Source: a virus
Taxonomy: Duplodnaviria; Heunggongvirae; Uroviricota; Caudoviricetes
Strand: one strand, 5' to 3'
Virus record (IMG/VR): IMGVR_UViG_2541047946_000010
DNA length: 16,076 bases
In this document: one piece after another, positions 1-14,030 of the stretch
Numbering within the stretch: position 1 is the first letter of the stretch
How the letters are laid out: each line of letters starts with the position of its first letter
Notes under the pieces: model-generated
Seen by the model: the letters and a program-made list of their open reading frames with translations, nothing else
The model's database searches: none
What the model was told of the DNA's origin: nothing
Made by a program: the position numbers and the translations under genes

Positions 1-1284
1 TTACTTCTTCGCCTCTGCAACCACTTTACTACCCACGCCGCGGTTATTGTATTCCCACATGCGGTTGTAGTTAGTGTCATTCAGATTGCGCTGTATTTCG
101 TCGTTATCATCTACGCTGCCGGTATTACCCGCAAACGGACGATTAGAGATCACCGCATCGGCCCACGGTTTAGCCGTGTTAAAACCTTCGTTGATGGCGC
201 TATCACGGATCACCACCTGACCGTTGGTATTGGCATCAACATCCAGCGAGCGGCCCAGTTGCGCCACACCATCACCGAAAGCATTGAAACGGCTGTTTAC
301 GGCGAGGAAACCGTAGTAAATGTTGGACAGCGTAGCCGGTGCAAACACATACGCTTCTTGCTGAGTACGTGAGTTCACCACGCGGAATTCGGTGTTATCG
401 AACACCACTGCGCCGCGACCAGAAACGATATCCACATCCCCTTCAATGTAGCTGTTGGTCACCAGCGTACGCGGCTGACGATTCGTTTCCAGACGGTTCT
501 GCACACCGCTGTTGGTGACAAAGAAGGTGTTCTGACGACCGAGAATGTTAACGTTGTTAATCTGTACCTGGTCACCATCAGTACGCAGTGCCACCGCCGG
601 ATGGTTACCTGCATCTACGCTATCGCCCAGCGTGTTTTCGATGGTCAGATTTTGCAGTTGCAGGCCATTGTTTTGTGACCAGAAGACCGCAGAGCAGAGA
701 ACACCGATACTGTCGCTGCGTTTGCTCTGGCAGCTATCGTACATATACCACGCTGGTTTACCTGGCATATATTTGCCGCGCGGGTTGACGTCGTGACGCC
801 AGTCGGCAGGGCTCATGCCACCATCAAGGGAAAGCCCAATCTTCACATCAATCGGTTTTTCACCTGTACCGTACAGAGTAATTCCACCCGGAGCGGCAGG
901 GACATATACCGTTCCCTGATACTCACCAGGCATCACGGCAATATACTGGCGCTTGTTGGTACGCTTGATAATTGCCGCATCTACCGCCGCCTGAATCGTG
1001 GTATGCGTTACACCTTGAGTGCCCGCCGGGCCGACAACAAAGTCAGGTTGCGCAGGCAGGGTAATCGGGGAAGGATTCCACGCTGCAGCACCTGGTGTCA
1101 GGGATGCAAAATAGTGTTGAGCATCGAAATTCTGCGCTTCTTTTGCCGACAGAATCGGGCGAGAAGAGGTACCAGGCGCGGTTTGATCAGAAGGACGTTG
1201 ATCGGGCGGGGTTGAGCTACAGGCGGTCAGCGTCACGCCAAAAGCCAATGCCAGCGCCAGACGGGAAACTGAAAATGTGTTCAC
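1..1284 (-). CDS. ybhC: Host outer-membrane lipoprotein YbhC (pectinesterase-family), complete
   Basis: 427-aa ORF ending in TAA at 1-3; GTG start at 1282-1284 with GGAG about 8 nt upstream; N-terminal signal peptide with lipobox LTAC; recognised from memory as E. coli YbhC, the gene flanking attB-lambda. Confidence 0.88.
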   Translation of the reverse strand: MNTFSVSRLALALAFGVTLTACSSTPPDQRPSDQTAPGTSSRPILSAKEAQNFDAQHYFASLTPGAAAWNPSPITLPAQPDFVVGPAGTQGVTHTTIQAAVDAAIIKRTNKRQYIAVMPGEYQGTVYVPAAPGGITLYGTGEKPIDVKIGLSLDGGMSPADWRHDVNPRGKYMPGKPAWYMYDSCQSKRSDSIGVLCSAVFWSQNNGLQLQNLTIENTLGDSVDAGNHPAVALRTDGDQVQINNVNILGRQNTFFVTNSGVQNRLETNRQPRTLVTNSYIEGDVDIVSGRGAVVFDNTEFRVVNSRTQQEAYVFAPATLSNIYYGFLAVNSRFNAFGDGVAQLGRSLDVDANTNGQVVIRDSAINEGFNTAKPWADAVISNRPFAGNTGSVDDNDEIQRNLNDTNYNRMWEYNNRGVGSKVVAEAKK

Positions 1285-1309
1285 AGGTTGCTCCGGGCTA
1301 TGAAATAGA

Positions 1310-1418
1310 AAAATGAATCCGTTGAAGCCTGCTTTTTTATACTAAGTTGGCATTATAAAAAAGCATTGCTTATCAATTTGTTGCAACGAACAGGTCACTA
1401 TCAGTCAAAATAAAATCA
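1310..1418. other. attL: Prophage attachment site attL (bacterial arm, core, phage P' arm); core GCTTTTTTATACTAA at 1331-1345
   Basis: Exact 15-bp lambda att core at 1331-1345, followed by P'-arm-like sequence (GTTGGCATTATAAAAAAGCATTGCTTATCAATTTGTTGCAACGAACAGGTCACTATCAGTCAAAATAAAATCATT) with arm-type Int motifs (CAGGTCACTATCAGTCAAAAT); bacterial sequence on the left leads into ybhC. Confidence 0.85.
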
Positions 1419-2489
1419 TTATTTGATTTCAATTTTGTCCCACTCCCTGCCTCTGTCATCACGATACTGTGATGCCATGGTGTCCGACTTATGCCCGAGA
1501 AGATGTTGAGCAAACTTATCGCTTATCTGCTTCTCATAGAGTCTTGCAGACAAACTGCGCAACTCGTGAAAGGTAGGCGGATCCCCTTCGAAGGAAAGAC
1601 CTGATGCTTTTCGTGCGCGCATAAAATACCTTGATACTGTGCCGGATGAAAGCGGTTCGCGACGAGTAGATGCAATTATGGTTTCTCCGCCAAGAATCTC
1701 TTTGCATTTATCAAGTGTTTCCTTCATTGATATTCCGAGAGCATCAACATGCAATGCTGTTGGGATGGCAATTTTTACGCCTGTTTTGCTTTGCTCGACA
1801 TAAAGATATCCATCTACGATATCAGACCACTTCATTTCGCATAAATCACCAACTCGTTGCCCGGTAACAACAGCCAGTTCCATTGCAAGTCTAAGCCAAC
1901 ATGGTGATGATTCTGCTGCTTGATAAATTTTCAGGTATTCGTCAGCCGTAAGTCTTGATCTCCTTACCTCTGATTTTGCAGCGCGAGTGGCTGCGACCGG
2001 GTTTGTTGTTATATGGCCTTCAGCCATAGCCTCTCGGAATGCATCGCTCAGTGTTGATCTGATTAACTTGGCTGATGCCGCCTTTCCCTCGTCTATGTAT
2101 CCATTGAGCATTGCCGCAATTTCTTTTGTGGTGATGTCTTCAAGTGGAGCATCAGGCAGACCCCTCCTTATTGCTTTAATTTTGCTCATGTAATTTATGA
2201 GTGTCTTCTGCTTGATTCCTCTGCTGGCCAGGATTTTTTCGTAGCGATCAAGCCATGAATGTAATGTAACGGAATTATCACTGTTGATTCTCGCTGTCAG
2301 AGGCTTGTGTTTGTGTCCTGAAAATAACTCAATGTTGGCCTGTATAGCTTCAGTGATTGCGATTCGCCTGTCTCGGCCTAATCCAAACTCTTTACCCGTC
2401 CTTGGGTCCCTGTAGCAGTAATATCCATTGTTTCTTATATAAAGGTTAGGGGGTAAATCCCGGCGCTCATGACTTCGCCTTCTTCCCAT
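1419..2489 (-). CDS. int: Tyrosine integrase, lambda Int type
   Basis: 356-aa ORF; N-terminus MGRRRSHERRDLPPNLYIRNNGYYCYRDPRTGKEFGLGRD and C-terminal catalytic region (HELRSL...LLGH...Y) recognised as lambda Int; sits directly next to attL. Confidence 0.97.
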   Translation of the reverse strand: MGRRRSHERRDLPPNLYIRNNGYYCYRDPRTGKEFGLGRDRRIAITEAIQANIELFSGHKHKPLTARINSDNSVTLHSWLDRYEKILASRGIKQKTLINYMSKIKAIRRGLPDAPLEDITTKEIAAMLNGYIDEGKAASAKLIRSTLSDAFREAMAEGHITTNPVAATRAAKSEVRRSRLTADEYLKIYQAAESSPCWLRLAMELAVVTGQRVGDLCEMKWSDIVDGYLYVEQSKTGVKIAIPTALHVDALGISMKETLDKCKEILGGETIIASTRREPLSSGTVSRYFMRARKASGLSFEGDPPTFHELRSLSARLYEKQISDKFAQHLLGHKSDTMASQYRDDRGREWDKIEIK

Positions 2490-2685
2490 TTCTGATCCTC
2501 TTCAAAAGGCTACCTGTTACTGGTCGATTTAAGTCAACCTTTACCGCTGATTCGTGGAACAGATATTCTCTTCCATCCTTAACCGGAGGAGGGAATATCC
2601 TGCATTCGCGCACCCATCGACGAACTGTTTCAAGGCTTCTTGGGCGTCGCTGGCGAGCGTTCCACTCCTGAAGTGTCAAGTACAT
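2467..2685 (-). CDS. xis: Excisionase Xis
   Basis: 72-aa ORF MYLTLQEWNARQRRPRSLETVRRWVRECRIFPPP... recognised as lambda Xis; its 3' end overlaps the int start by 23 nt, as in lambda. Confidence 0.95.
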   Translation of the reverse strand: MYLTLQEWNARQRRPRSLETVRRWVRECRIFPPPVKDGREYLFHESAVKVDLNRPVTGSLLKRIRNGKKAKS

Positions 2686-3262: not shown

Positions 3263-3367
3263 TTATAAACTCCTTGCAATGTATGTCGTTTCAGCTAAAC
3301 GGTATCAGCAATGTGAACCGCCCCGGGAATCCTGGAGACTAAACTTCCTGAGAAAGAGGTAAACAGG

Positions 3368-3694
3368 ATGACTAAAAATACTCGTTTTTCCCCTGAAGTC
3401 CGTCAACGGGCAGTCCGTATGGTTCTGGAAAGTCAGGGCGAATATGACTCACAATGGGCGACAATTTGTTCCATTGCTCCAAAGATTGGCTGTACGCCGG
3501 AGACTCTGCGTGTCTGGGTTCGCCAGCATGAGCGGGATACCGGGGGCGGTGATGGAGGGCTCACCACCGCTGAACGTCAGCGTCTGAAAGAGCTGGAGCG
3601 TGAAAATCGTGAACTGCGCCGCAGTAACGATATCCTTCGCCAGGCTTCCGCTTATTTTGCGAAGGCGGAGTTCGACCGCCTCTGGAAAAAATGA
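3368..3694 (+). CDS. IS3-family transposase OrfA (helix-turn-helix and leucine-zipper part)
   Basis: 108-aa [33 protein letters not shown]... recognised as IS629/IS1203-group OrfA; ends in an A6 run (AAAAAA at 3686-3691) that overlaps the orfB start. Confidence 0.93.
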
Positions 3695-4581
3695 TGCCAC
3701 TGCTGGATAAGCTGCGTGAGCAGTACGGGGTCGGACCGCTATGCAGCGAACTGCATATTGCCCCGTCAACGTATTACCACTGTCAGCAACAGCGACATCA
3801 TCCGGATAAACGCAGTGCCCGTGCGCAGCGCGATGACTGGCTGAAGAAAGAGATACAGCGCGTATACGATGAAAATCACAAGGTATACGGTGTGCGTAAA
3901 GTCTGGCGTCAGTTGTTACGGGAAGGTATCAGAGTGGCCAGATGCACTGTGGCACGTCTCATGGCGGTTATGGGACTTGCCGGTGTTCTCCGGGGTAAAA
4001 AGGTCCGTACGACCATCAGCCGGAAAGCCGTTGCCGCAGGCGACCGCGTAAACCGTCAGTTCGTGGCAGAACGACCTGACCAGCTGTGGGTGGCTGATTT
4101 TACTTACGTCAGCACATGGCAGGGCTTCGTCTATGTGGCGTTCATCATTGATGTGTTTGCCGGATACATTGTGGGGTGGCGGGTCTCATCGTCCATGGAG
4201 ACGACATTCGTGCTGGATGCACTGGAGCAGGCGTTATGGGCCCGTCGACCGTCCGGCACGGTCCATCACAGTGATAAAGGTTCTCAGTATGTATCGCTGG
4301 CCTACACACAGCGGCTTAAGGAAGCCGGATTACTGGCATCAACAGGAAGTACAGGCGACTCGTATGACAACGCGATGGCGGAGAGCATCAATGGTCTTTA
4401 CAAAGCGGAGGTAATACACCGTAAGAGCTGGAAAAACCGTGCAGAAGTGGAACTGGCCACACTCACGTGGGTGGACTGGTATAACAATCGACGATTGCTG
4501 GAAAGGCTGGGCCATACTCCTCCGGCAGAAGCAGAAAAAGCTTATTATGCTTCCATCGGAAACGATGATCTGGCAGCCTGA
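3691..4581 (+). CDS. IS3-family transposase OrfB (DDE catalytic domain), in -1 frame relative to orfA
   Basis: 296-aa ORF; DDE residues visible in [16 protein letters not shown] and [12 protein letters not shown]; starts with ATG overlapping the orfA TGA, consistent with programmed -1 frameshift fusion typical of IS3 elements. Confidence 0.93.
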
Positions 4582-4623
4582 GTTCACAGATAAAATACTC
4601 TCCAGGAAACCCGGGGCGGTTCA

Positions 4624-5469
4624 GAGCGTAATGTGGCAGATCTCGATGATGGTTACGCCAGACTATCAAATATGCTGCTTGAGGCTTATTCAGGCGCAGA
4701 TCTGACCAAGCGACAGTTTAAAGTGCTGCTTGCCATTCTGCGTAAAACCTATGGGTGGAATAAACCAATGGACAGAATCACCGATTCTCAACTTAGCGAG
4801 ATTACAAAGTTACCCGTCAAACGGTGCAATGAAGCCAAGTTAGAACTCGTCAGAATGAATATTATCAAGCAGCAAGGCGGCATGTTTGGACCAAACAAAA
4901 ACATCTCAGAATGGTGCATCCCTCAAAACGAGGGAAAATCCCCTAAAACGAGGGATAAAACATCCCTCAAATTGGGGGATTGCTATCCCTCAAAACAGGG
5001 GGACACAAAAGACACTATTACAAAAGAAAAAAGAAAAGATTATTCGTCAGAGAATTCTGGCGAATCCTCTGACCAGCCAGAAAACGACCTTTCTGTGGTG
5101 AAACCGGATGCTGCAATTCAGAGCGGCAGCAAGTGGGGGACAGCAGAAGACCTGACCGCCGCAGAGTGGATGTTTGACATGGTGAAGACCATCGCGCCAT
5201 CAGCCAGAAAACCGAATTTTGCAGGGTGGGCTAACGATATCCGCCTGATGCGTGAACGTGACGGACGTAACCACCGCGACATGTGCGTGCTGTTCCGCTG
5301 GGCATGCCAGGACAACTTCTGGTCCGGTAACGTGCTTAGCCCGGCCAAACTCCGCGACAAGTGGACCCAGCTCGAAATCAACCGTAACAAGCAACAGGCA
5401 GTCGTGACAGCCAGCAAACCAAAACTCGACCTGACAAACACAGACTGGATTTACGGGGTGGATCTATGA
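4624..5469 (+). pseudogene. O: Replication initiator O, 5'-truncated by the IS (first ~20 codons and promoter missing)
   Basis: The reading frame runs straight out of the IS right end (GGTTCA|GAG CGT AAT GTG GCA GAT CTC = ERNVADL...); remaining 281 codons match lambda O from residue ~21 to the C-terminus (…DWIYGVDL); first in-frame starts are GTG 4633 and ATG 4672; no upstream pR or ribosome-binding context. Confidence 0.85.
4918..5050. repeat. ori-lambda: four iterons (each an inverted repeat of TCCCTCAAAACGAGGGA type) plus adjacent AT-rich unwinding region
   Basis: Four tandem ~19-24-bp repeats (ATCCCTCAAAACGAGGGA / AAATCCCCTAAAACGAGGGATAAA / ACATCCCTCAAATTGGGGGATTGCT / ATCCCTCAAAACAGGGGGAC) followed by an A-rich tract (AAAAGACACTATTACAAAAGAAAAAAGAAAAGATTATT), located inside O as in lambda. 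Confidence 0.85.
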
Positions 5470-9372: not shown

Positions 9373-10455
9373 TTAGAACTGATAAACCAGACCTACAGCG
9401 ACGATGTCGTCGGTATCAATACCAGCTGTTTTGGTAAACTTACTATCGTCAATTAAGTTGATTTTGTAATCAACAAAAGTAGACATGTTTTTATTAAAGT
9501 AGTAAGTAGCACCGACATCGACATACTTGACTAAGTCTCGGTCACCATGAACACCAAGGTCTTTACCTTTTGACTGAAGGTAAGCAACAGATGGGCGCAG
9601 ACCGAAGTCAAACTGATATTGTGCTACTGCTTCAAAGTTTTGTGCTTTGTTTGCAATATGGTTATTACCAAAAACGGTCATATTCTGAGTTTCAGAATAT
9701 GTGGTAGCCAGATAGATATTGTTCGCATCATATTTCAGGCCTGCAGCCCATACTTCCGCATTTTTGCCGGAGGCATTGAATTTGCTCTTACCATAGGCGA
9801 CCTGACCGTCAGTGCGATCTGATTTAGCATAGGTTGCACCCACGCCGAATCCTTCATACTCATAAGTAGTGGAGAAACCGAAACCATCACCATTGGCTTC
9901 AGTTACGTCAGTGCGGTCATTTTTACCCTGATACTGAGCAGCAAAGTTCAGGCCATCGACCAGACCAAAGAAGTCGTTGTTACGATAAGTTGCAACACCA
10001 GTAGTGCGACCAGTCATGAACACATCTGTTTGGGTCCAGGTATCACCACCGAATTCTGGCAGAACGTCAGTCCACGCACCGATGTCGTATGCTACACCGT
10101 AGTTACGGCCGTAATCGATGGAGCCGTAATCACCAAATTTCAGGCCTGCAAATGCAAGACGGGTTTTGTCTTTGGAAGAACCTTGAGATTCAGCACGGTT
10201 GCCTTTGAATTCATATTCCCACTGACCGAAACCAGTCAGTTGATCGTTGATTTGGGTTTCACCTTTGAAGCCAAGACGGGCATAAGTAGTATCACCATCA
10301 TCTGCATCATTAGAGGAGAAGTAGTGCTTGGCATTAACTTTCCCGTATAGATCCAGCTTGTTACTGTCTTTATTATAAATTTCAGCTGCCTGAGCAGACA
10401 TCGCCATCAGTACTGATGCAGCTACAGCAGAAATTGCCACTGTTAATTTTTTCAT
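9373..10455 (-). CDS. nmpC: Phage-borne OmpC-family general porin (NmpC/Lc-like moron)
   Basis: 360 aa from ATG 10455 with AAGGG ribosome-binding site; signal peptide [23 protein letters not shown] followed by [17 protein letters not shown]-terminal ...VGLVYQF with terminal Phe; classic 16-strand porin hallmarks; the upstream Met at 10515 lacks a ribosome-binding site and is rejected. Confidence 0.92.
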
Positions 10456-10880
10456 TGTACGCCCTTTTTTTGAACTATTATTAAAAAATGATGTCACTGC
10501 GCGATAAATATTCATCTAATCAATGTGATTATTTCAAGATGTAAGTTTTAGTTTCTCATTTAATTTGTGAAGTAGATCTCTATTTTTATCTGAACCTTTT
10601 CTATCTAATCCTATTCATGGCTCTTGTCTGAACAAAAATAAATCTATTAGCTAATTTATATTAATGGCACTTATTTATAAGTGCTCTATAATTCTTTAGC
10701 TTAATTTAAACAAACTAAAAATAACATCGGAAATTATTAACTGATTATTTGTTGAAGTTTTCTTATGTATTTGTGGTGGTGTTTTGAACACTCGGTGGCA
10801 TTCTCACAAATATCATTTAGTAGTTTACGTACGTAAAAAATTGGTTATGCTGTTAAGAGTGGTTACTTCGTCACACAGCT
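10456..10880 (-). promoter_or_regulatory. AT-rich porin upstream regulatory region (promoter not precisely mapped)
   Basis: About 425 bp of visibly AT-rich non-coding DNA upstream of the porin start, contrasting with flanking phage genes; typical of horizontally acquired morons and of porin control regions. Confidence 0.35.
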
Positions 10881-11756: not shown

Positions 11757-12214
11757 ACAGAGTAACCGCGATTATCTCCGCTCTGGTTATCTGCATCATC
11801 GTCTGCCTGTCATGGGCTGTTAATCATTACCGTGATAACGCCATTACCTACAAAGCCCAGCGCGACAAAAATGCCAGAGAACTGAAGCTGGCGAACGCGG
11901 CAATTACTGACATGCAGATGCGTCAGCGTGATGTTGCTGCGCTCGATGCAAAATACACGAAGGAGTTAGCTGATGCGAAAGCTGAAAATGATGCTCTGCG
12001 TGATGATGTTGCCGCTGGTCGTCGTCGGTTGCACATCAAAGCAGTCTGTCAGTCAGTGCGTGAAGCCACCACCGCCTCCGGCGTGGATAATGCAGCCTCC
12101 CCCCGACTGGCAGACACCGCTGAACGGGATTATTTCACCCTCAGAGAGAGGCTGATCACTATGCAAAAACAACTGGAAGGAACCCAGAAGTATATTAATG
12201 AGCAGTGCAGATAG
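11753..12214 (+). CDS. Rz: Rz inner-membrane spanin
   Basis: 153 aa from ATG 11753, overlapping the endolysin stop; N-terminal transmembrane segment, coiled-coil-like middle; recognised as lambda-type Rz. Confidence 0.88.
11973..12155 (+). CDS. Rz1: Rz1 outer-membrane lipoprotein spanin, embedded in the +1 frame of Rz
   Basis: 60 aa [20 protein letters not shown]... with lipobox VVGC and proline-rich mature part ([16 protein letters not shown]); lies entirely inside Rz. Confidence 0.82.
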
Positions 12215-12245
12215 AGCTGCCCATATCGATGGGCAACTCATGCAA

Positions 12246-12539
12246 TTATTGTGAGCAATACACACGCGCTTCCAGCGGAGTATAAATGCCTAAAGTAATA
12301 AAACCGAGAAATCCATTTACGAATGTTTGCTGGGTTTCTGTTTTAACAACATTTTCTGCGCCGCCACAAATTTTGGCTGCATCAACAGTTTTCTCCTGTC
12401 CAATTCCCGAAACGAAGAAATGATGGGTGATGGTTTCCTTTGGTGTTACTGCTGTCGGTTTGTTTCCAACAGTAAACGTCTGTTGAGCACATCCTGTAAT
12501 AAGCATTGCCAGAGCGGCAGAAAACAACATTTTTTTCAT
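12246..12539 (-). CDS. bor: Bor lipoprotein (serum-resistance-associated)
   Basis: 97 aa from ATG 12539 (MKKMLFSAALAMLITGCAQQTFTV...), lipobox ITGC; recognised as lambda Bor; the ORF-track start at 12587 is an upstream extension. Confidence 0.9.
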   Translation of the reverse strand: MKKMLFSAALAMLITGCAQQTFTVGNKPTAVTPKETITHHFFVSGIGQEKTVDAAKICGGAENVVKTETQQTFVNGFLGFITLGIYTPLEARVYCSQ

Positions 12540-12655
12540 CTTATTATCCTGCATTGTTAAAAACGGCAGAATCCTATGTGACAACAATTAAACGATAGTT
12601 AAATGGATTGATGAAAATTAAAACTATATAGGTGGATGCTCAGCCTATTGGAGGA

Positions 12656-12664
12656 GGGGGGGGG
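12656..12664. repeat. G9 homopolymer tract within a purine-rich run (GGAGGAGGGGGGGGG)
   Basis: Nine consecutive G at 12656-12664, about 117 bp upstream of the bor start codon, in non-coding DNA. Confidence 0.9.
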
Positions 12665-12901
12665 CACTCAGAATCCTGTGGAATGAAATAAACCGCTCTA
12701 TCTGTCCATTACCCTTTTAGCTGCGCTGTATCGTCGCCGTATTCCCGCATTAACCATGACCGTAGCCCGACGGGGAATTCCTTCTGCGTGAGTGTGCGGG
12801 AATAATCAAAAACGATGCACACCGGGTTTTACTGTGCTGACAGACGCAGGGTTACCCTCATAGTCGCTTTTCCGGTGCGATGGTGGAAGAAACCGGGATG
12901 T

Positions 12902-13096
12902 TCATCCATCATCACTTTGGATTGATGTATATGCTCTCTTTTCTGACGTTAGTCTCCGACGGCAGGCTTCAATGACCCAGGCTGAGAAATTCCCAGACCC
13001 TTTTTGCTCAAGAGCGATGTTAATTTGTTCAATCATTTGGTTAGGAAAGCGGATGTTGCGGGTTGTTGTTCTGCGGGTTCTGTTCTTCGTTGACAT
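12902..13096 (-). CDS. Small basic protein, probable ribbon-helix-helix DNA binder (YlcI/DUF3950-like)
   Basis: 64-aa ORF MSTKNRTRRTTTRNIRFPNQMIEQINIALEQKGSGNFSAWVIEACRRRL...; basic N-terminus followed by an RHH-like strand-helix pattern; lies just upstream of cos on the opposite strand. Confidence 0.6.
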   Translation of the reverse strand: MSTKNRTRRTTTRNIRFPNQMIEQINIALEQKGSGNFSAWVIEACRRRLTSEKRAYTSIQSDDG

Positions 13097-13249
13097 GAGG
13101 TTGCCCCGTATTCAGTGTCGCTGATTTGTATTGTCTGAAGTTGTTTTTACGTTAAGTTGATGCAGATCAATTAATATGATACCTGCGTCATAATTGATTA
13201 TTTGACGTGGTTTGATGGCGTAGATGCACGTTGTGACATGCAGATGATA

Positions 13250-13470
13250 ATTATTATCATTTTGCGGGTCCTTTCCGGCGATCCGACAGGTTACGGGGCG
13301 GCGACCTCGCGGGTTTTCGCTATTTATGAAAATTTTCCGGTTTAAGGCGTTTCCGTTCTTCTTCGTCATAACTTAATGTTTTTATTTAAAATACCCTCTG
13401 AAAAGAAAGGAAACGACAGGTGCTGAAAGCGAGCTTTTTGGCCTCTGTCGTTTCCTTTCTCTGTTTTTGT
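13250..13470. other. cos: Cohesive end site cos: cosQ, cosN (GGGCGGCGACCT at 13296-13307) and cosB with three R elements
   Basis: Exact lambda 12-nt cohesive-end sequence preceded by ...CCGACAGGTTACG; downstream heptamers CGTTTCC (13348), GGAAACG (13409, inverted) and CGTTTCC (13449) match the R3/R2/R1 layout, with an AT-rich IHF-like tract between the first two. Confidence 0.88.
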
Positions 13471-13484
13471 CCGTGGAATGAACA

Positions 13485-14004
13485 ATGGAAGTCAACAAAA
13501 AGCAGCTGGCTGACATTTTCGGTGCGAGTATCCGTACCATTCAGAACTGGCAGGAACAGGGAATGCCCGTTCTGCGAGGCGGTGGCAAGGGTAATGAGGT
13601 GCTTTATGACTCTGCCGCCGTCATAAAATGGTATGCCGAAAGGGATGCTGAAATTGAGAACGAAAAGCTGCGCCGGGAAGTTGAAGAACTGCGGCAGGCC
13701 AGCGAGACAGATCTCCAGCCAGGGACTATTGAGTACGAACGCCACCGACTTACGCGTGCACAGGCCGACGCACAGGAGCTGAAAAATGCCAGAGACTCCG
13801 CTGAAGTGGTGGAAACCGCATTCTGTACTTTCGTGCTGTCGCGGATCGCAGGTGAAATTGCCAGTATTCTCGACGGGATCCCCCTGTCGGTGCAGCGGCG
13901 TTTTCCGGAACTGGAAAACCGACATGTTGATTTCCTGAAACGGGATATCATCAAAGCCATGAACAAAGCAGCCGCGCTGGATGAACTGATACCGGGGTTG
14001 CTGA

Positions 14005-14030
<26 letters not shown>
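13485..14030 (+). CDS. Nu1: Terminase small subunit Nu1
   Basis: 181-aa ORF MEVNKKQLADIFGASIRTIQNWQEQGMPVLRGGGKGNEVLYD... recognised as lambda Nu1 (winged-HTH N-terminus). Confidence 0.97.

What the first reader, a model, noticed from the sequence alone, without database searches (positions are those of the whole stretch)
12588..12901. G9 homopolymer in the bor upstream region; bor-to-cos interval shorter than I recall for lambda
A run of nine G (12656-12664) lies about 117 bp upstream of bor in an otherwise ORF-free 314-bp stretch. Homopolymer tracts of this length are uncommon in enterobacterial DNA and are prone to slipped-strand length changes, which could alter bor expression or simply mark a sequencing-error hotspot. 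The bor-to-cos interval here is about 0.75 kb, whereas I recall about 1.7 kb in lambda, suggesting a module carried by lambda is absent.
Basis: partly seen in the sequence, partly recalled or inferred. Interest (0 to 1): 0.4.

Follow-up and report, generated by a model that had tools for sequence, protein, structure and literature searches.

The report
Slippery G-run upstream of prophage bor/iss
The nine-G run is real and changes length quickly among related E. coli prophages. It sits outside the bor/iss promoter in a dispensable spacer, so it is most likely a neutral slippage hotspot. The short bor-to-cos distance is simply the ordinary phage-434 layout.

Summary
Both observations are confirmed. 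G9 lies at 12656-12664, 117 bp upstream of the bor ATG. The bor-to-cos interval is 756 bp, against 1750 bp in lambda.

The window is a defective lambdoid prophage at att-lambda in E. coli MMC-J-0105. Its right end is 99% identical to phage 434. Lambda carries an extra 1056-bp module (lambdap78/lambdap79) that is absent here.

The G-run is hypervariable:
- It ranges from G5 to G10 in 103 relatives.
- In complete E. coli genomes the counts are G6 485, G7 203, G8 78 and G9 29.
- Copies with identical 800-bp flanks differ from G7 to G10.
- About 977 further genomes carry an interrupted form (AGTTGGGGR) at this position, and lambda lacks the whole spacer.

The run lies 51 bp beyond the site homologous to lambda's PhoP box. 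That is about -92 to -100 from the predicted transcription start. The length distribution shows no 3-nt periodicity. I conclude it is a neutral replication-slippage hotspot rather than a phase switch, but this has not been tested experimentally.

One unexpected item lies in the same "ORF-free" stretch. Positions 12722-12898 form a ~175-nt block conserved in hundreds of lambdoid and Stx phages and in Salmonella prophages. It always has the orientation of the late transcript. Covariation and a G·U bias support a + strand RNA structure. It has no Rfam match.

The parts
12246..12539 (-). bor / iss lipoprotein gene (97 aa)
   Evidence: Pfam Lambda_Bor, E = 3.7e-30. RefSeq annotates it as iss in the source genome.
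12571..12576 (-). Predicted -10 hexamer (TAGGAT) of the bor/iss promoter. This is an inference, not a mapped site.
   Evidence: It aligns with lambda TACGAT, 12 nt downstream of lambda's PhoP box. The generic sigma-70 scan found no - strand promoter here. That fits an activator-dependent promoter lacking a -35 element.
12589..12605 (-). Degenerate PhoP-box-like site, CATTTAACTATCGTTTA
   Evidence: It is positionally homologous to lambda's exact PhoP box TGTTTAGGGTTTGTTTA (lambda 46805-46821). It has 3 mismatches to the consensus and so is not found at 2 mismatches or fewer. borD belongs to the PhoP regulon (PMC5740661).
12594..12721 (.). Spacer of the 434/iss type. It is absent from lambda, which has 55 unrelated bp here.
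   Evidence: BLAST and MAFFT against lambda and 434. Phage vB_EcoS-569R6 shares the bor side up to GCCTATCGGAGG and then diverges, so the tract sits at a mosaic joint.
12656..12664 (+). G9 homopolymer, a hypervariable tract
   Evidence: Lengths of G5-G10 in 103 relatives. G6 485, G7 203, G8 78 and G9 29 in complete E. coli genomes. G7-G10 within one identical 800-bp flank haplotype. Interrupted as AGTTGGGGR in about 977 genomes.
12599..12667 (-). 22-aa mini-ORF (GTG start, MPPPSSNRLSIHLYSFNFHQSI) in which the tract encodes PPP. Probably not functional.
   Evidence: AGGA lies 6 nt upstream of the GTG. G7 and G8 shift the frame, and these make up 281 of the 795 exact-match complete genomes. There is no 3-nt periodicity in tract lengths.
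12722..12898 (+). Conserved ~175-nt non-coding block, a candidate structured RNA in the sense of the late transcript. P1 is 12728-12734 with 12812-12818. P2 is 12740-12749 with 12795-12804. A variable hairpin lies at about 12832-12849. The terminal hairpin is 12870-12876 with 12892-12898.
   Evidence: Found in about 400 phage records. It always has the orientation of Rz and starts 4-13 nt after the Rz stop codon where bor is absent. 9 of 24 pairs show compensatory changes and 97.1% of cells are paired, against 28-54% when the partners are slid. G·U-type cells number 177 against 12 A·C-type. RNAalifold recovers the helices on its own. No Rfam hit.
12902..13096 (-). YlcI/YnfO-family gene (DUF3950, 64 aa)
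   Evidence: Pfam DUF3950, E = 2e-20. Annotated ylcI in RefSeq. The same ORF is present but unannotated in lambda NC_001416.
13266..13307 (+). cosQ (13266-13272, by homology) and the 12-nt cohesive end GGGCGGCGACCT (13296-13307)
   Evidence: Sequence. The position corresponds to the cosQ feature annotated in phage 434 OL657226. This stretch is 95.6% identical to lambda 48092-48502.
13485..14030 (+). Terminase small subunit Nu1 (nohD)
   Evidence: ORF list. RefSeq annotation of the source genome.

Best explanation
The 314-bp stretch is the ordinary intergenic region between the bor/iss moron and the ylcI-like gene at the right end of a phage-434-type lambdoid prophage. The G9 is a mononucleotide repeat in a lineage-specific, dispensable spacer of about 128 bp that joins the bor promoter region to a conserved block.

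The proposed history is as follows. An ancestral interrupted sequence, GGAGGA-AGTTGGGGG, lost its interruption and became an uninterrupted G5/G6 run. Replication slippage then lengthened and shortened the run, at a rate that rises with run length. That produced the present G5-G10 polymorphism, of which this window's G9 is a rare long allele.

The run lies about 51 bp upstream of the degenerate PhoP-box-like site. That is roughly -92 to -100 from the predicted bor transcription start. Length changes therefore do not alter core promoter geometry, and they are most likely neutral for bor/iss expression.

The short bor-to-cos interval reflects the absence of a 1056-bp accessory module (lambdap78/ybcV-like and lambdap79/ybcW-like). 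Lambda carries that module between the conserved block and ylcI.

Shown: the tract, its polymorphism, its position, the layout, and the missing module. Inferred: the slippage mechanism, neutrality, and the promoter position.
For: Layout:
- The region is 99.1% identical to phage 434 over 1096 bp, differing by one 3-nt gap in the tract.
- Against lambda the homology falls into three segments, and lambda 47036-48091 is unmatched.
- The same short arrangement is the commonest among related loci and occurs in about 1,900 complete E. coli genomes.

Hypermutability:
- IMG/VR relatives carry G5 x4, G6 x46, G7 x27, G8 x14, G9 x5, G10 x3 and GGGAGG x4.
- Within the window's own exact 800-bp flank haplotype, lengths are G7 x5, G8 x4, G9 x1 and G10 x1. 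G6 haplotypes are nearly invariant.
- Complete genomes give 485, 203, 78 and 29 for G6 to G9, a smooth decay of about 0.4 per step.
- Phage PhiR11_1 is 99.9% identical to the window over 11.4 kb but carries G7.
- Replicate records agree: both 434 records give the same length, as do PhiR11_1 and PhiR11_1_star.

Dispensability:
- Lambda lacks the spacer.
- About 977 genomes have the interrupted AGTTGGGG(A/G) form.
- 569R6 diverges just before the tract, after GGAGG, four bases upstream of it.

Position relative to the promoter:
- Lambda has an exact PhoP box 53-69 nt upstream of the bor ATG.
- The homologous window site is 12589-12605.
- borD is PhoP-regulated (PMC5740661).

No coding constraint: G7 and G8 are as frequent as a monotonic decay predicts, with no excess at multiples of three.
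Against: - No transcription start site or expression data exist for this promoter type. The -10 element and the PhoP box are assigned by homology with lambda, and the window's box has 3 mismatches.
- Repeat tracts upstream of the -35 element can modulate promoters in other bacteria, so an effect on bor/iss cannot be excluded by sequence alone.
- A 22-aa - strand ORF with a plausible Shine-Dalgarno sequence reads the tract as PPP. It stays in frame in G6, in G9 and in one interrupted variant.
- Assembly errors at G-runs could inflate the apparent polymorphism in some records.
Confidence: 0.75

Rival explanations
1. The G-run is a contingency (phase or tuning) switch for the serum-resistance gene bor/iss. 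Slippage would change the spacing between an upstream element and the promoter, so that subpopulations express different Bor/Iss levels.
For: The tract is hypervariable and lies in the upstream region of a surface-lipoprotein gene. The 12-nt motif CAGAATCCTRTG overlaps the predicted -10 region of the bor promoter (12567-12578) and is repeated at 12669-12680, just beyond the tract. Something promoter-like may therefore sit upstream of the tract.
Against: The tract is not between -35 and -10 and does not overlap the PhoP-box-like site. It lies about 51 bp beyond that site. Lambda lacks it, and about half of E. coli copies have it interrupted. Lengths follow a smooth geometric decay with no favoured alleles. 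No promoter-like site flanks the tract. I found no report of such a switch.
Confidence: 0.08
2. The tract switches a small - strand ORF on and off. That ORF is 12599-12667 and encodes MPPPSSNRLSIHLYSFNFHQSI. It could be a polyproline leader peptide or micro-protein upstream of bor/iss. It is in frame at G6 and G9 and out of frame at G7 and G8.
For: The ORF is listed, and AGGA lies 6 nt upstream of its GTG. The interrupted EcPF20 variant keeps a 22-aa ORF, MPPTSSNSLSVHLYSFNFHQSI.
Against: It has a GTG start and no known transcript, and its 3' half overlaps the AT-rich bor promoter, which explains its conservation. The UPEC 536 variant truncates it through a 2-nt deletion. Lambda and 569R6 lack it. 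Tract lengths show no 3-nt periodicity.
Confidence: 0.04
3. The G9 and the apparent length variation are sequencing or assembly artefacts at a homopolymer.
For: Homopolymers are known error hotspots for 454 and long-read platforms (for example PMC4134206). A single assembly cannot be verified here.
Against: Exact G9 with identical flanks recurs in 29 complete genomes and in phage 2G7b. Independent records of the same phage agree on length. G7 accounts for 25% of exact matches, far above any consensus error rate. Other homopolymers in the same 800-bp flanks show no variation.
Confidence: 0.05

Closest known systems
Right end of coliphage 434 (OL657226/OL657227): Rz - bor - DUF3950 gene - cosQ/cos
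   Same: Same gene order, same 0.75-kb bor-to-cos interval, same spacer and same conserved block. Identity is 99.1% over 1096 bp.
   Different: 434 has G6 rather than G9, plus 7 substitutions. This window is a defective chromosomal prophage in which an IS3-family element replaces the exo-to-cII region.
Phage lambda bor-cos region (NC_001416, 46753-48502)
   Same: Both have bor, the conserved block (lambda about 46865-47035), an unannotated ylcI-like ORF, cosQ and cos.
   Different: Lambda carries an extra 1056 bp (47036-48091) holding lambdap78 and lambdap79. It lacks the spacer of about 128 bp that contains the G-run, having 55 unrelated bp instead. It has an exact PhoP box.
Chromosomal iss upstream region of the UPEC 536 / EcPF20 type
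   Same: Same spacer and flanks, found in about 977 complete E. coli genomes.
   Different: The tract position reads AGTTGGGG(A/G), an interrupted run of G4-G5. It is probably close to the ancestral, stable state.
Simple-sequence contingency loci, such as the poly-G/poly-C tracts in the Neisseria porA and opc promoters and the Bordetella fim promoters (from general knowledge)
   Same: A slippage-prone G/C homopolymer upstream of a surface-protein gene, with length polymorphism among close relatives.
   Different: In those loci the tract sits between -35 and -10 or inside the ORF and is maintained by selection. Here it lies about 80 bp upstream of the predicted -10, is dispensable, and shows a neutral-looking length distribution.
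Known prophage-encoded sRNAs of pathogenic E. coli (AgvB, AsxR, Esr41, STnc100, Pas sRNAs)
   Same: Like the conserved block at 12722-12898, they are non-coding elements carried in the late regions of lambdoid prophages.
   Different: The Pas sRNAs map next to the holin/lysozyme operon and within 10 kb of the antiterminator Q gene. AgvB, AsxR, Esr41 and STnc100 have Rfam models, and none of them matches this region. The block lies downstream of Rz.

Membership tests
Slipped-strand contingency (phase-variable) locus | A hypermutable simple repeat whose length differs among close relatives | tested here: met
   G5-G10 among relatives. G7-G10 within one identical 800-bp haplotype.
Slipped-strand contingency (phase-variable) locus | The repeat lies inside an ORF, between -35 and -10, or within a regulator site, so that length switches expression | tested here: not met
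   The tract is 51 bp beyond the PhoP-box-like site and about 80 bp from the predicted -10. No promoter-like hexamers flank it. The only ORF across it is a doubtful 22-aa one, and tract lengths show no 3-nt periodicity. The promoter position is inferred, not mapped.
Slipped-strand contingency (phase-variable) locus | The repeat is maintained across lineages | tested here: not met
   Absent from lambda, interrupted in about 977 E. coli genomes, and absent from 569R6.
Slipped-strand contingency (phase-variable) locus | Reversible ON/OFF or graded expression phenotype | not testable with these tools
   This needs reporter assays and serum-survival assays.
Lambdoid bor/iss moron | A Bor-family lipoprotein gene on the strand opposite the late operon, between Rz and the packaging region | tested here: met
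   Pfam Lambda_Bor, E = 3.7e-30. The gene order is Rz(+), bor(-), ylcI(-), Nu1(+).
Lambdoid bor/iss moron | Its own PhoP-dependent promoter with a (T/G)GTTTA-N5-(T/G)GTTTA box | tested here: inconclusive
   The box is exact in lambda. The homologous site in the window has 3 mismatches. Regulation has been shown only for K-12 borD (PMC5740661).
Phage-434-type right end, as opposed to the lambda type | bor is followed directly by the conserved block and the DUF3950 gene, without the lambdap78/lambdap79 module | tested here: met
Any Rfam RNA family (for the block at 12722-12898) | A covariance-model match at or near the gathering score | tested here: not met
   No hit in the block at E <= 10, for either the E. 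coli copy or the Salmonella copy.
Protein-coding gene (for the block at 12722-12898) | A conserved open frame with mostly synonymous, third-position variation | tested here: not met
   The + strand ORF (phrog_6954) is broken in the window and in lambda. Frame 1 of the - strand is open in 67 of 71 copies. It nevertheless shows 14 synonymous against 33 non-synonymous variants, spread 21/10/16 over codon positions 1/2/3, with pN/pS 0.59. Indels are not multiples of three.

The most novel reading that the evidence does not exclude
The conserved ~175-nt block inside the finding's "ORF-free" stretch (12722-12898, + strand) may be a previously undescribed structured RNA element of lambdoid phages. 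It would lie at the 3' end of the lysis cassette within the pR' late transcript.

Its proposed structure has a 7-bp closing helix and a 10-11-bp helix that together enclose a conserved internal region. A variable hairpin follows, and then a terminal 7-bp hairpin with a conserved 15-nt loop, GCGruGGUrGAAGAA.

Possible roles are as a processing or stability determinant, or as a regulator between the lysis genes and the morphogenesis genes. The G-run would then be only a neutral neighbour.
Probability: 0.5. Interest if true: 0.55.

Novelty: new member of a known kind. Interest (0 to 1): 0.3.

Why it matters
For the finding as stated, the practical value is modest.
- The tract is a fast-evolving marker that can separate otherwise identical prophage lineages.
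- It is a predictable source of 1-nt assembly discrepancies upstream of iss/bor, a widely typed ExPEC/APEC virulence marker.
- It should not be read as a regulatory switch without experiments.
- The "missing" lambda segment is normal mosaic variation.

The more useful outcome is the conserved block next to it. If it is a functional RNA, it would be a new, widespread cis-element of lambdoid and Stx-phage late transcription. It could be tested directly in lambda at 46865-47035.

Tried and rejected
- **Rfam.** I scanned the whole window at gathering score, and 12200-13500 plus the Salmonella copy at E <= 10. Nothing matched in the region. The only real hit is an IS3-family ALIL frameshift pseudoknot at 3649-3765.
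- **Tract as a promoter spacer.** No -35/-10 pair brackets the tract on either strand (and inspection).
- **Second bor promoter.** The direct repeat CAGAATCCTRTG (12567 and 12669) suggested a duplicated promoter. The similarity is only a 12-mer, with a poor -10 (CAGGAT), so I dropped it as unsupported.
- **Predicted promoter in the HK629 record.** TGGACA-N15-TACAAT lies on the - strand inside the block. Its hexamers are not conserved in the window (CGGTCA and TACGGC).
- **Coding readings of the block.** The + strand ORF (phrog_6954, labelled "Rz-like spanin") and the 37-aa - strand ORF called in several phage records were both rejected on stops, frameshifts and substitution pattern.
- **Thermodynamic stability of the block.** The z-scores are -0.39 (+ strand) and +0.20 (- strand), which is not informative.
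- **Terminal-hairpin motif as a general module-junction repeat.** Only lambda keeps a degenerate second copy.
- **Species-representative genome scan.** One hit, a 468-bp contig in a Thiomicrorhabdus assembly that is probably contamination.
- **Literature searches.** I looked for a bor/iss poly-G tract, the bor promoter and prophage sRNAs. Nothing covered this tract or the block. Casjens & Hendrix 2015 is not held.

Full report
**What the window is.** The window matches the E. coli MMC-J-0105 chromosome (NZ_CM128543.1, about 3.511-3.527 Mb, reverse strand) at 100% identity. The gene order is:
- the host gene ybhC (1-1284);
- int, xis and ea8.5;
- an IS3-family element (3368-4581, with its ALIL frameshift pseudoknot);
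- a truncated O gene, then P, the nin region and Q;
- a porin moron;
- the lysis genes, bor (annotated iss), ylcI, cos, Nu1 and A.

It is therefore a defective lambdoid prophage at att-lambda. The IS replaces the whole exo-to-cII region. From 4624 onward the window is 99.9-100% identical to the free phages PhiR11_1 and 2G7b.

**Checking the observation.** Nine G occupy 12656-12664, preceded by GGAGGA. The bor ATG is at 12539 on the - strand, 117 bp away. This is the only G/C run of 8 or more in the window. Eleven of 200 dinucleotide shuffles produce an equivalent run, so it is uncommon but not remarkable by composition alone. The lambda cohesive end GGGCGGCGACCT starts at 13296, which makes bor-to-cos 756 bp against 1750 bp in lambda. 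No ORF of 40 aa or more lies in 12588-12901, and RefSeq annotates nothing there. Both parts of the observation are confirmed.

**The short interval.** BLAST against lambda gives three homologous segments:

| Window | Lambda | Identity |
|---|---|---|
| 12200-12593 | 46413-46809 | 90% |
| 12719-12829 | 46865-46974 | 82% |
| 12885-13295 | 48092-48502 | 95.6% |

Taking into account the wider alignment of the conserved block, the lambda-specific segment is 47036-48091, 1056 bp. It holds lambdap78 (ybcV-like) and lambdap79 (ybcW-like). Conversely, the window has about 128 bp (12594-12721) where lambda has 55 unrelated bp.

Lambda's right junction retains a degenerate second copy of the block's terminal hairpin sequence, GTCCTGTTCGGAGGGAAGAACGCGGGA. 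That suggests the module was inserted or lost by recombination at this motif. This is an inference.

The short layout is that of phage 434, with 99.1% identity over 1096 bp and the same annotated features. It is also seen in 2G7b, mEp332, PhiR11_1 and Turner, and in about 1,900 complete E. coli genomes. It is the commonest arrangement among the related loci I sampled. It is known mosaic variation, not an anomaly.

**The G-run is hypervariable.** Phage 434 differs from the window by a 3-nt gap in the tract, G6 against G9. A pattern anchored on both flanks retrieved 102 IMG/VR loci. Together with 434, the lengths are G5 x4, G6 x46, G7 x27, G8 x14, G9 x5, G10 x3 and GGGAGG x4.

Grouping by exact 400+400-bp flanks is informative. 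The window's own haplotype (11 sequences) holds G7 x5, G8 x4, G9 x1 and G10 x1. Haplotypes with G6 are almost invariant: 8 of 9 in one, and 3 of 3 in each of four others. The tract therefore changes faster than any flanking base, and more so when it is long. That is the behaviour expected of replication slippage.

Exact-match queries against 5,426 complete E. coli genomes give G6 485, G7 203, G8 78 and G9 29. This is a smooth decay of about 0.4 per added G. Named phage genomes carry G6 (434, mEp332), G7 (PhiR11_1, Turner), G8 (PhiR68_2) and G9 (2G7b).

Records of the same phage agree with each other. The two 434 records match, and so do PhiR11_1 and PhiR11_1_star. Sequencing error is therefore not the general explanation.

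**The G-run is dispensable.**
- Lambda lacks the spacer entirely.
- About 977 further complete genomes, including UPEC 536 and EcPF20, carry a diverged form of the same spacer. There the position reads GGAGGA-AGTTGGGG(A/G)-CACTC, the same length as the G9 allele but interrupted.
- Phage vB_EcoS-569R6 shares the bor upstream region up to GCCTATCGGAGG and then diverges, which places the tract at a mosaic joint.

The simplest history is loss of the AGTT interruption followed by expansion and contraction.

**Position relative to the bor promoter.** Lambda has an exact PhoP box, TGTTTAGGGTTTGTTTA, 53-69 nt upstream of the bor ATG. K-12 borD belongs to the PhoP regulon (PMC5740661). The consensus used for the box is from general knowledge.

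The homologous site in the window, CATTTAACTATCGTTTA (12589-12605), has three mismatches. A TAGGAT hexamer follows 12 nt downstream (12571-12576). On this inferred geometry the tract lies 51 bp beyond the box, at about -92 to -100. No promoter-like hexamer pair brackets the tract on either strand. Length changes therefore do not alter core promoter spacing.

A 22-aa - strand ORF (12599-12667, GTG start, AGGA 6 nt upstream) reads the tract as PPP. However, G7 and G8 alleles, which break the frame, are as common as a monotonic decay predicts. UPEC 536 truncates the ORF, and its 3' half is simply the conserved bor promoter. I rate a regulatory or coding role for the tract as unlikely, about 0.1 in total, but it has not been tested.

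**An unexpected neighbour.** The right-hand 175 nt of the "ORF-free" stretch (12722-12898) is conserved at 75-100% in about 400 phage records. These include lambda, 21, 434, HK629, mEp460, many Stx1/Stx2 phages and Salmonella phage 29485. It is also present in at least 120 IMG/VR contigs.

Its left boundary is sharp, at TGCGC-GTATCGTC, against at least five unrelated left flanks. It always has the orientation of Rz and lies after the lysis cassette. It comes before whatever follows, which may be ylcI, Nu1, 933W-type terS, a TonB-like gene or lambdap78. In 29 loci without bor or a KilA-N gene it begins 4-13 nt after the Rz stop codon. This implies that bor is a moron inserted between Rz and the block.

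RNAalifold on 81 unique copies, and independently on 12 representatives, predicts four elements on the + strand:
- P1: GUAUCGU with ACGAUGC.
- P2: UAUUCCCGCA with UGCGGGAAUA.
- An inner CGYAG/CUGCG plus CCC/GGG stem.
- A terminal hairpin.

With eight Salmonella-type copies added, 9 of 24 pairs show compensatory double changes. In the Salmonella copies P2 becomes UAUCAUCGCA with UGCAAUGAUA. The terminal stem GUCCGGU/ACCGGAC becomes UCUCGAU/AUCGAGA, with four double changes and no mismatch, around a conserved 15-nt loop. Overall, 97.1% of cells pair, against 28-54% when the partners are slid. There are 87 double-change cells against 20.9 ± 4.8 in shuffles. The stricter count of covarying pairs is reached by 38 of 500 shuffles.

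Single-sided changes are overwhelmingly G·U on the + strand. There are 177 such cells, and 13 pairs have three or more sequences of this kind. A·C-type changes account for 12 cells and one pair. This argues for an RNA, or single-stranded, structure in the sense of the late pR' transcript rather than a duplex DNA palindrome.

Coding readings fail, and no Rfam family matches. Folding energy alone is unremarkable, and taxonomic breadth is narrow, so I put the structured-RNA reading at about 0.5. Its function is unknown. From its position, a 3' element of the lysis cassette, such as a processing, stability or read-through determinant, is the most economical guess.

**Verdict.** The G9 is real. It is a rare long allele of a fast-slipping, dispensable homopolymer in the phage-434/iss-type spacer upstream of bor/iss. 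It is most likely neutral (confidence 0.75). The short bor-to-cos interval is ordinary and already documented by phage 434. The finding itself is of low interest. The adjacent conserved block deserves an independent follow-up.

Noticed in passing
window 12722-12898 (+): A ~175-nt non-coding block conserved across lambdoid phages, Stx phages and Salmonella prophages. It always has the orientation of Rz and starts 4-13 nt after the Rz stop codon where bor is absent. Covariation and a G·U bias support a + strand RNA structure. It has no Rfam family.
   Followed up: partly
window 3263-4632: An IS3-family element (orfA 3368-3694, orfB 3691-4581, ALIL pseudoknot 3649-3765) sits between ea8.5 and a 5'-truncated O gene. 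It replaces the entire exo-bet-gam-N-cI-cro-cII region, so the prophage is defective. Exactly this junction occurs in only one complete genome, MMC-J-0105, which has 24 places matching this query, most of which is the IS.
   Followed up: partly
window 1-2685: The host gene ybhC (1-1284, weak Pectinesterase hit) lies next to lambda-type int (1419-2489) and xis (2467-2685). The prophage therefore sits at the classical att-lambda site.
   Followed up: yes
window 9373-10515 (-): A porin moron of 380 aa by ORF listing (Pfam Porin_1, E = 2e-151; RefSeq annotates a shorter CDS as ompC). It lies between the Q antiterminator gene and the lysis genes, as with Lc/NmpC in PA-2, DLP12 and 434.
   Followed up: no
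L002 2700-2895 (lambda about 48099-48294, - strand): Lambda NC_001416 contains an intact 64-aa YlcI/YnfO (DUF3950) ORF next to cos. The reference record does not annotate it.
   Followed up: partly
L005 about 2100 and L161 about 6640 (variants of the conserved block): Other long G-runs (G9-G10) have arisen independently inside variant copies of the block. Examples are CGCGGGGGGGGGCCC and GCGGGGGGGGGGAAGAA, where most copies read GGGTTTGT or GGGGGTGG. G-rich stretches in this neighbourhood repeatedly expand.
   Followed up: no
L222 (NZ_JACBGI020000059.1, 468-bp contig): The only hit among species-representative genomes is a 468-bp contig in a Thiomicrorhabdus heinhorstiae assembly, carrying the spacer with G7. 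It is very probably E. coli or phage contamination of that assembly.
   Followed up: no
phage records PV340547, PV340576, PP925837, PV340541; PHROG phrog_6954: Gene callers annotate spurious small CDSs over the conserved block. One is a 37-aa - strand ORF. The other is a 68-81-aa + strand ORF that PHROGs labels "Rz-like spanin". Neither behaves like a coding sequence.
   Followed up: yes
window 13404-13460: A 25-nt imperfect inverted repeat (84% complementary, 7-nt loop) lies between cos and the nu1 start, in the cosB region. It attracted only weak, spurious miRNA-family hits in Rfam.
   Followed up: no
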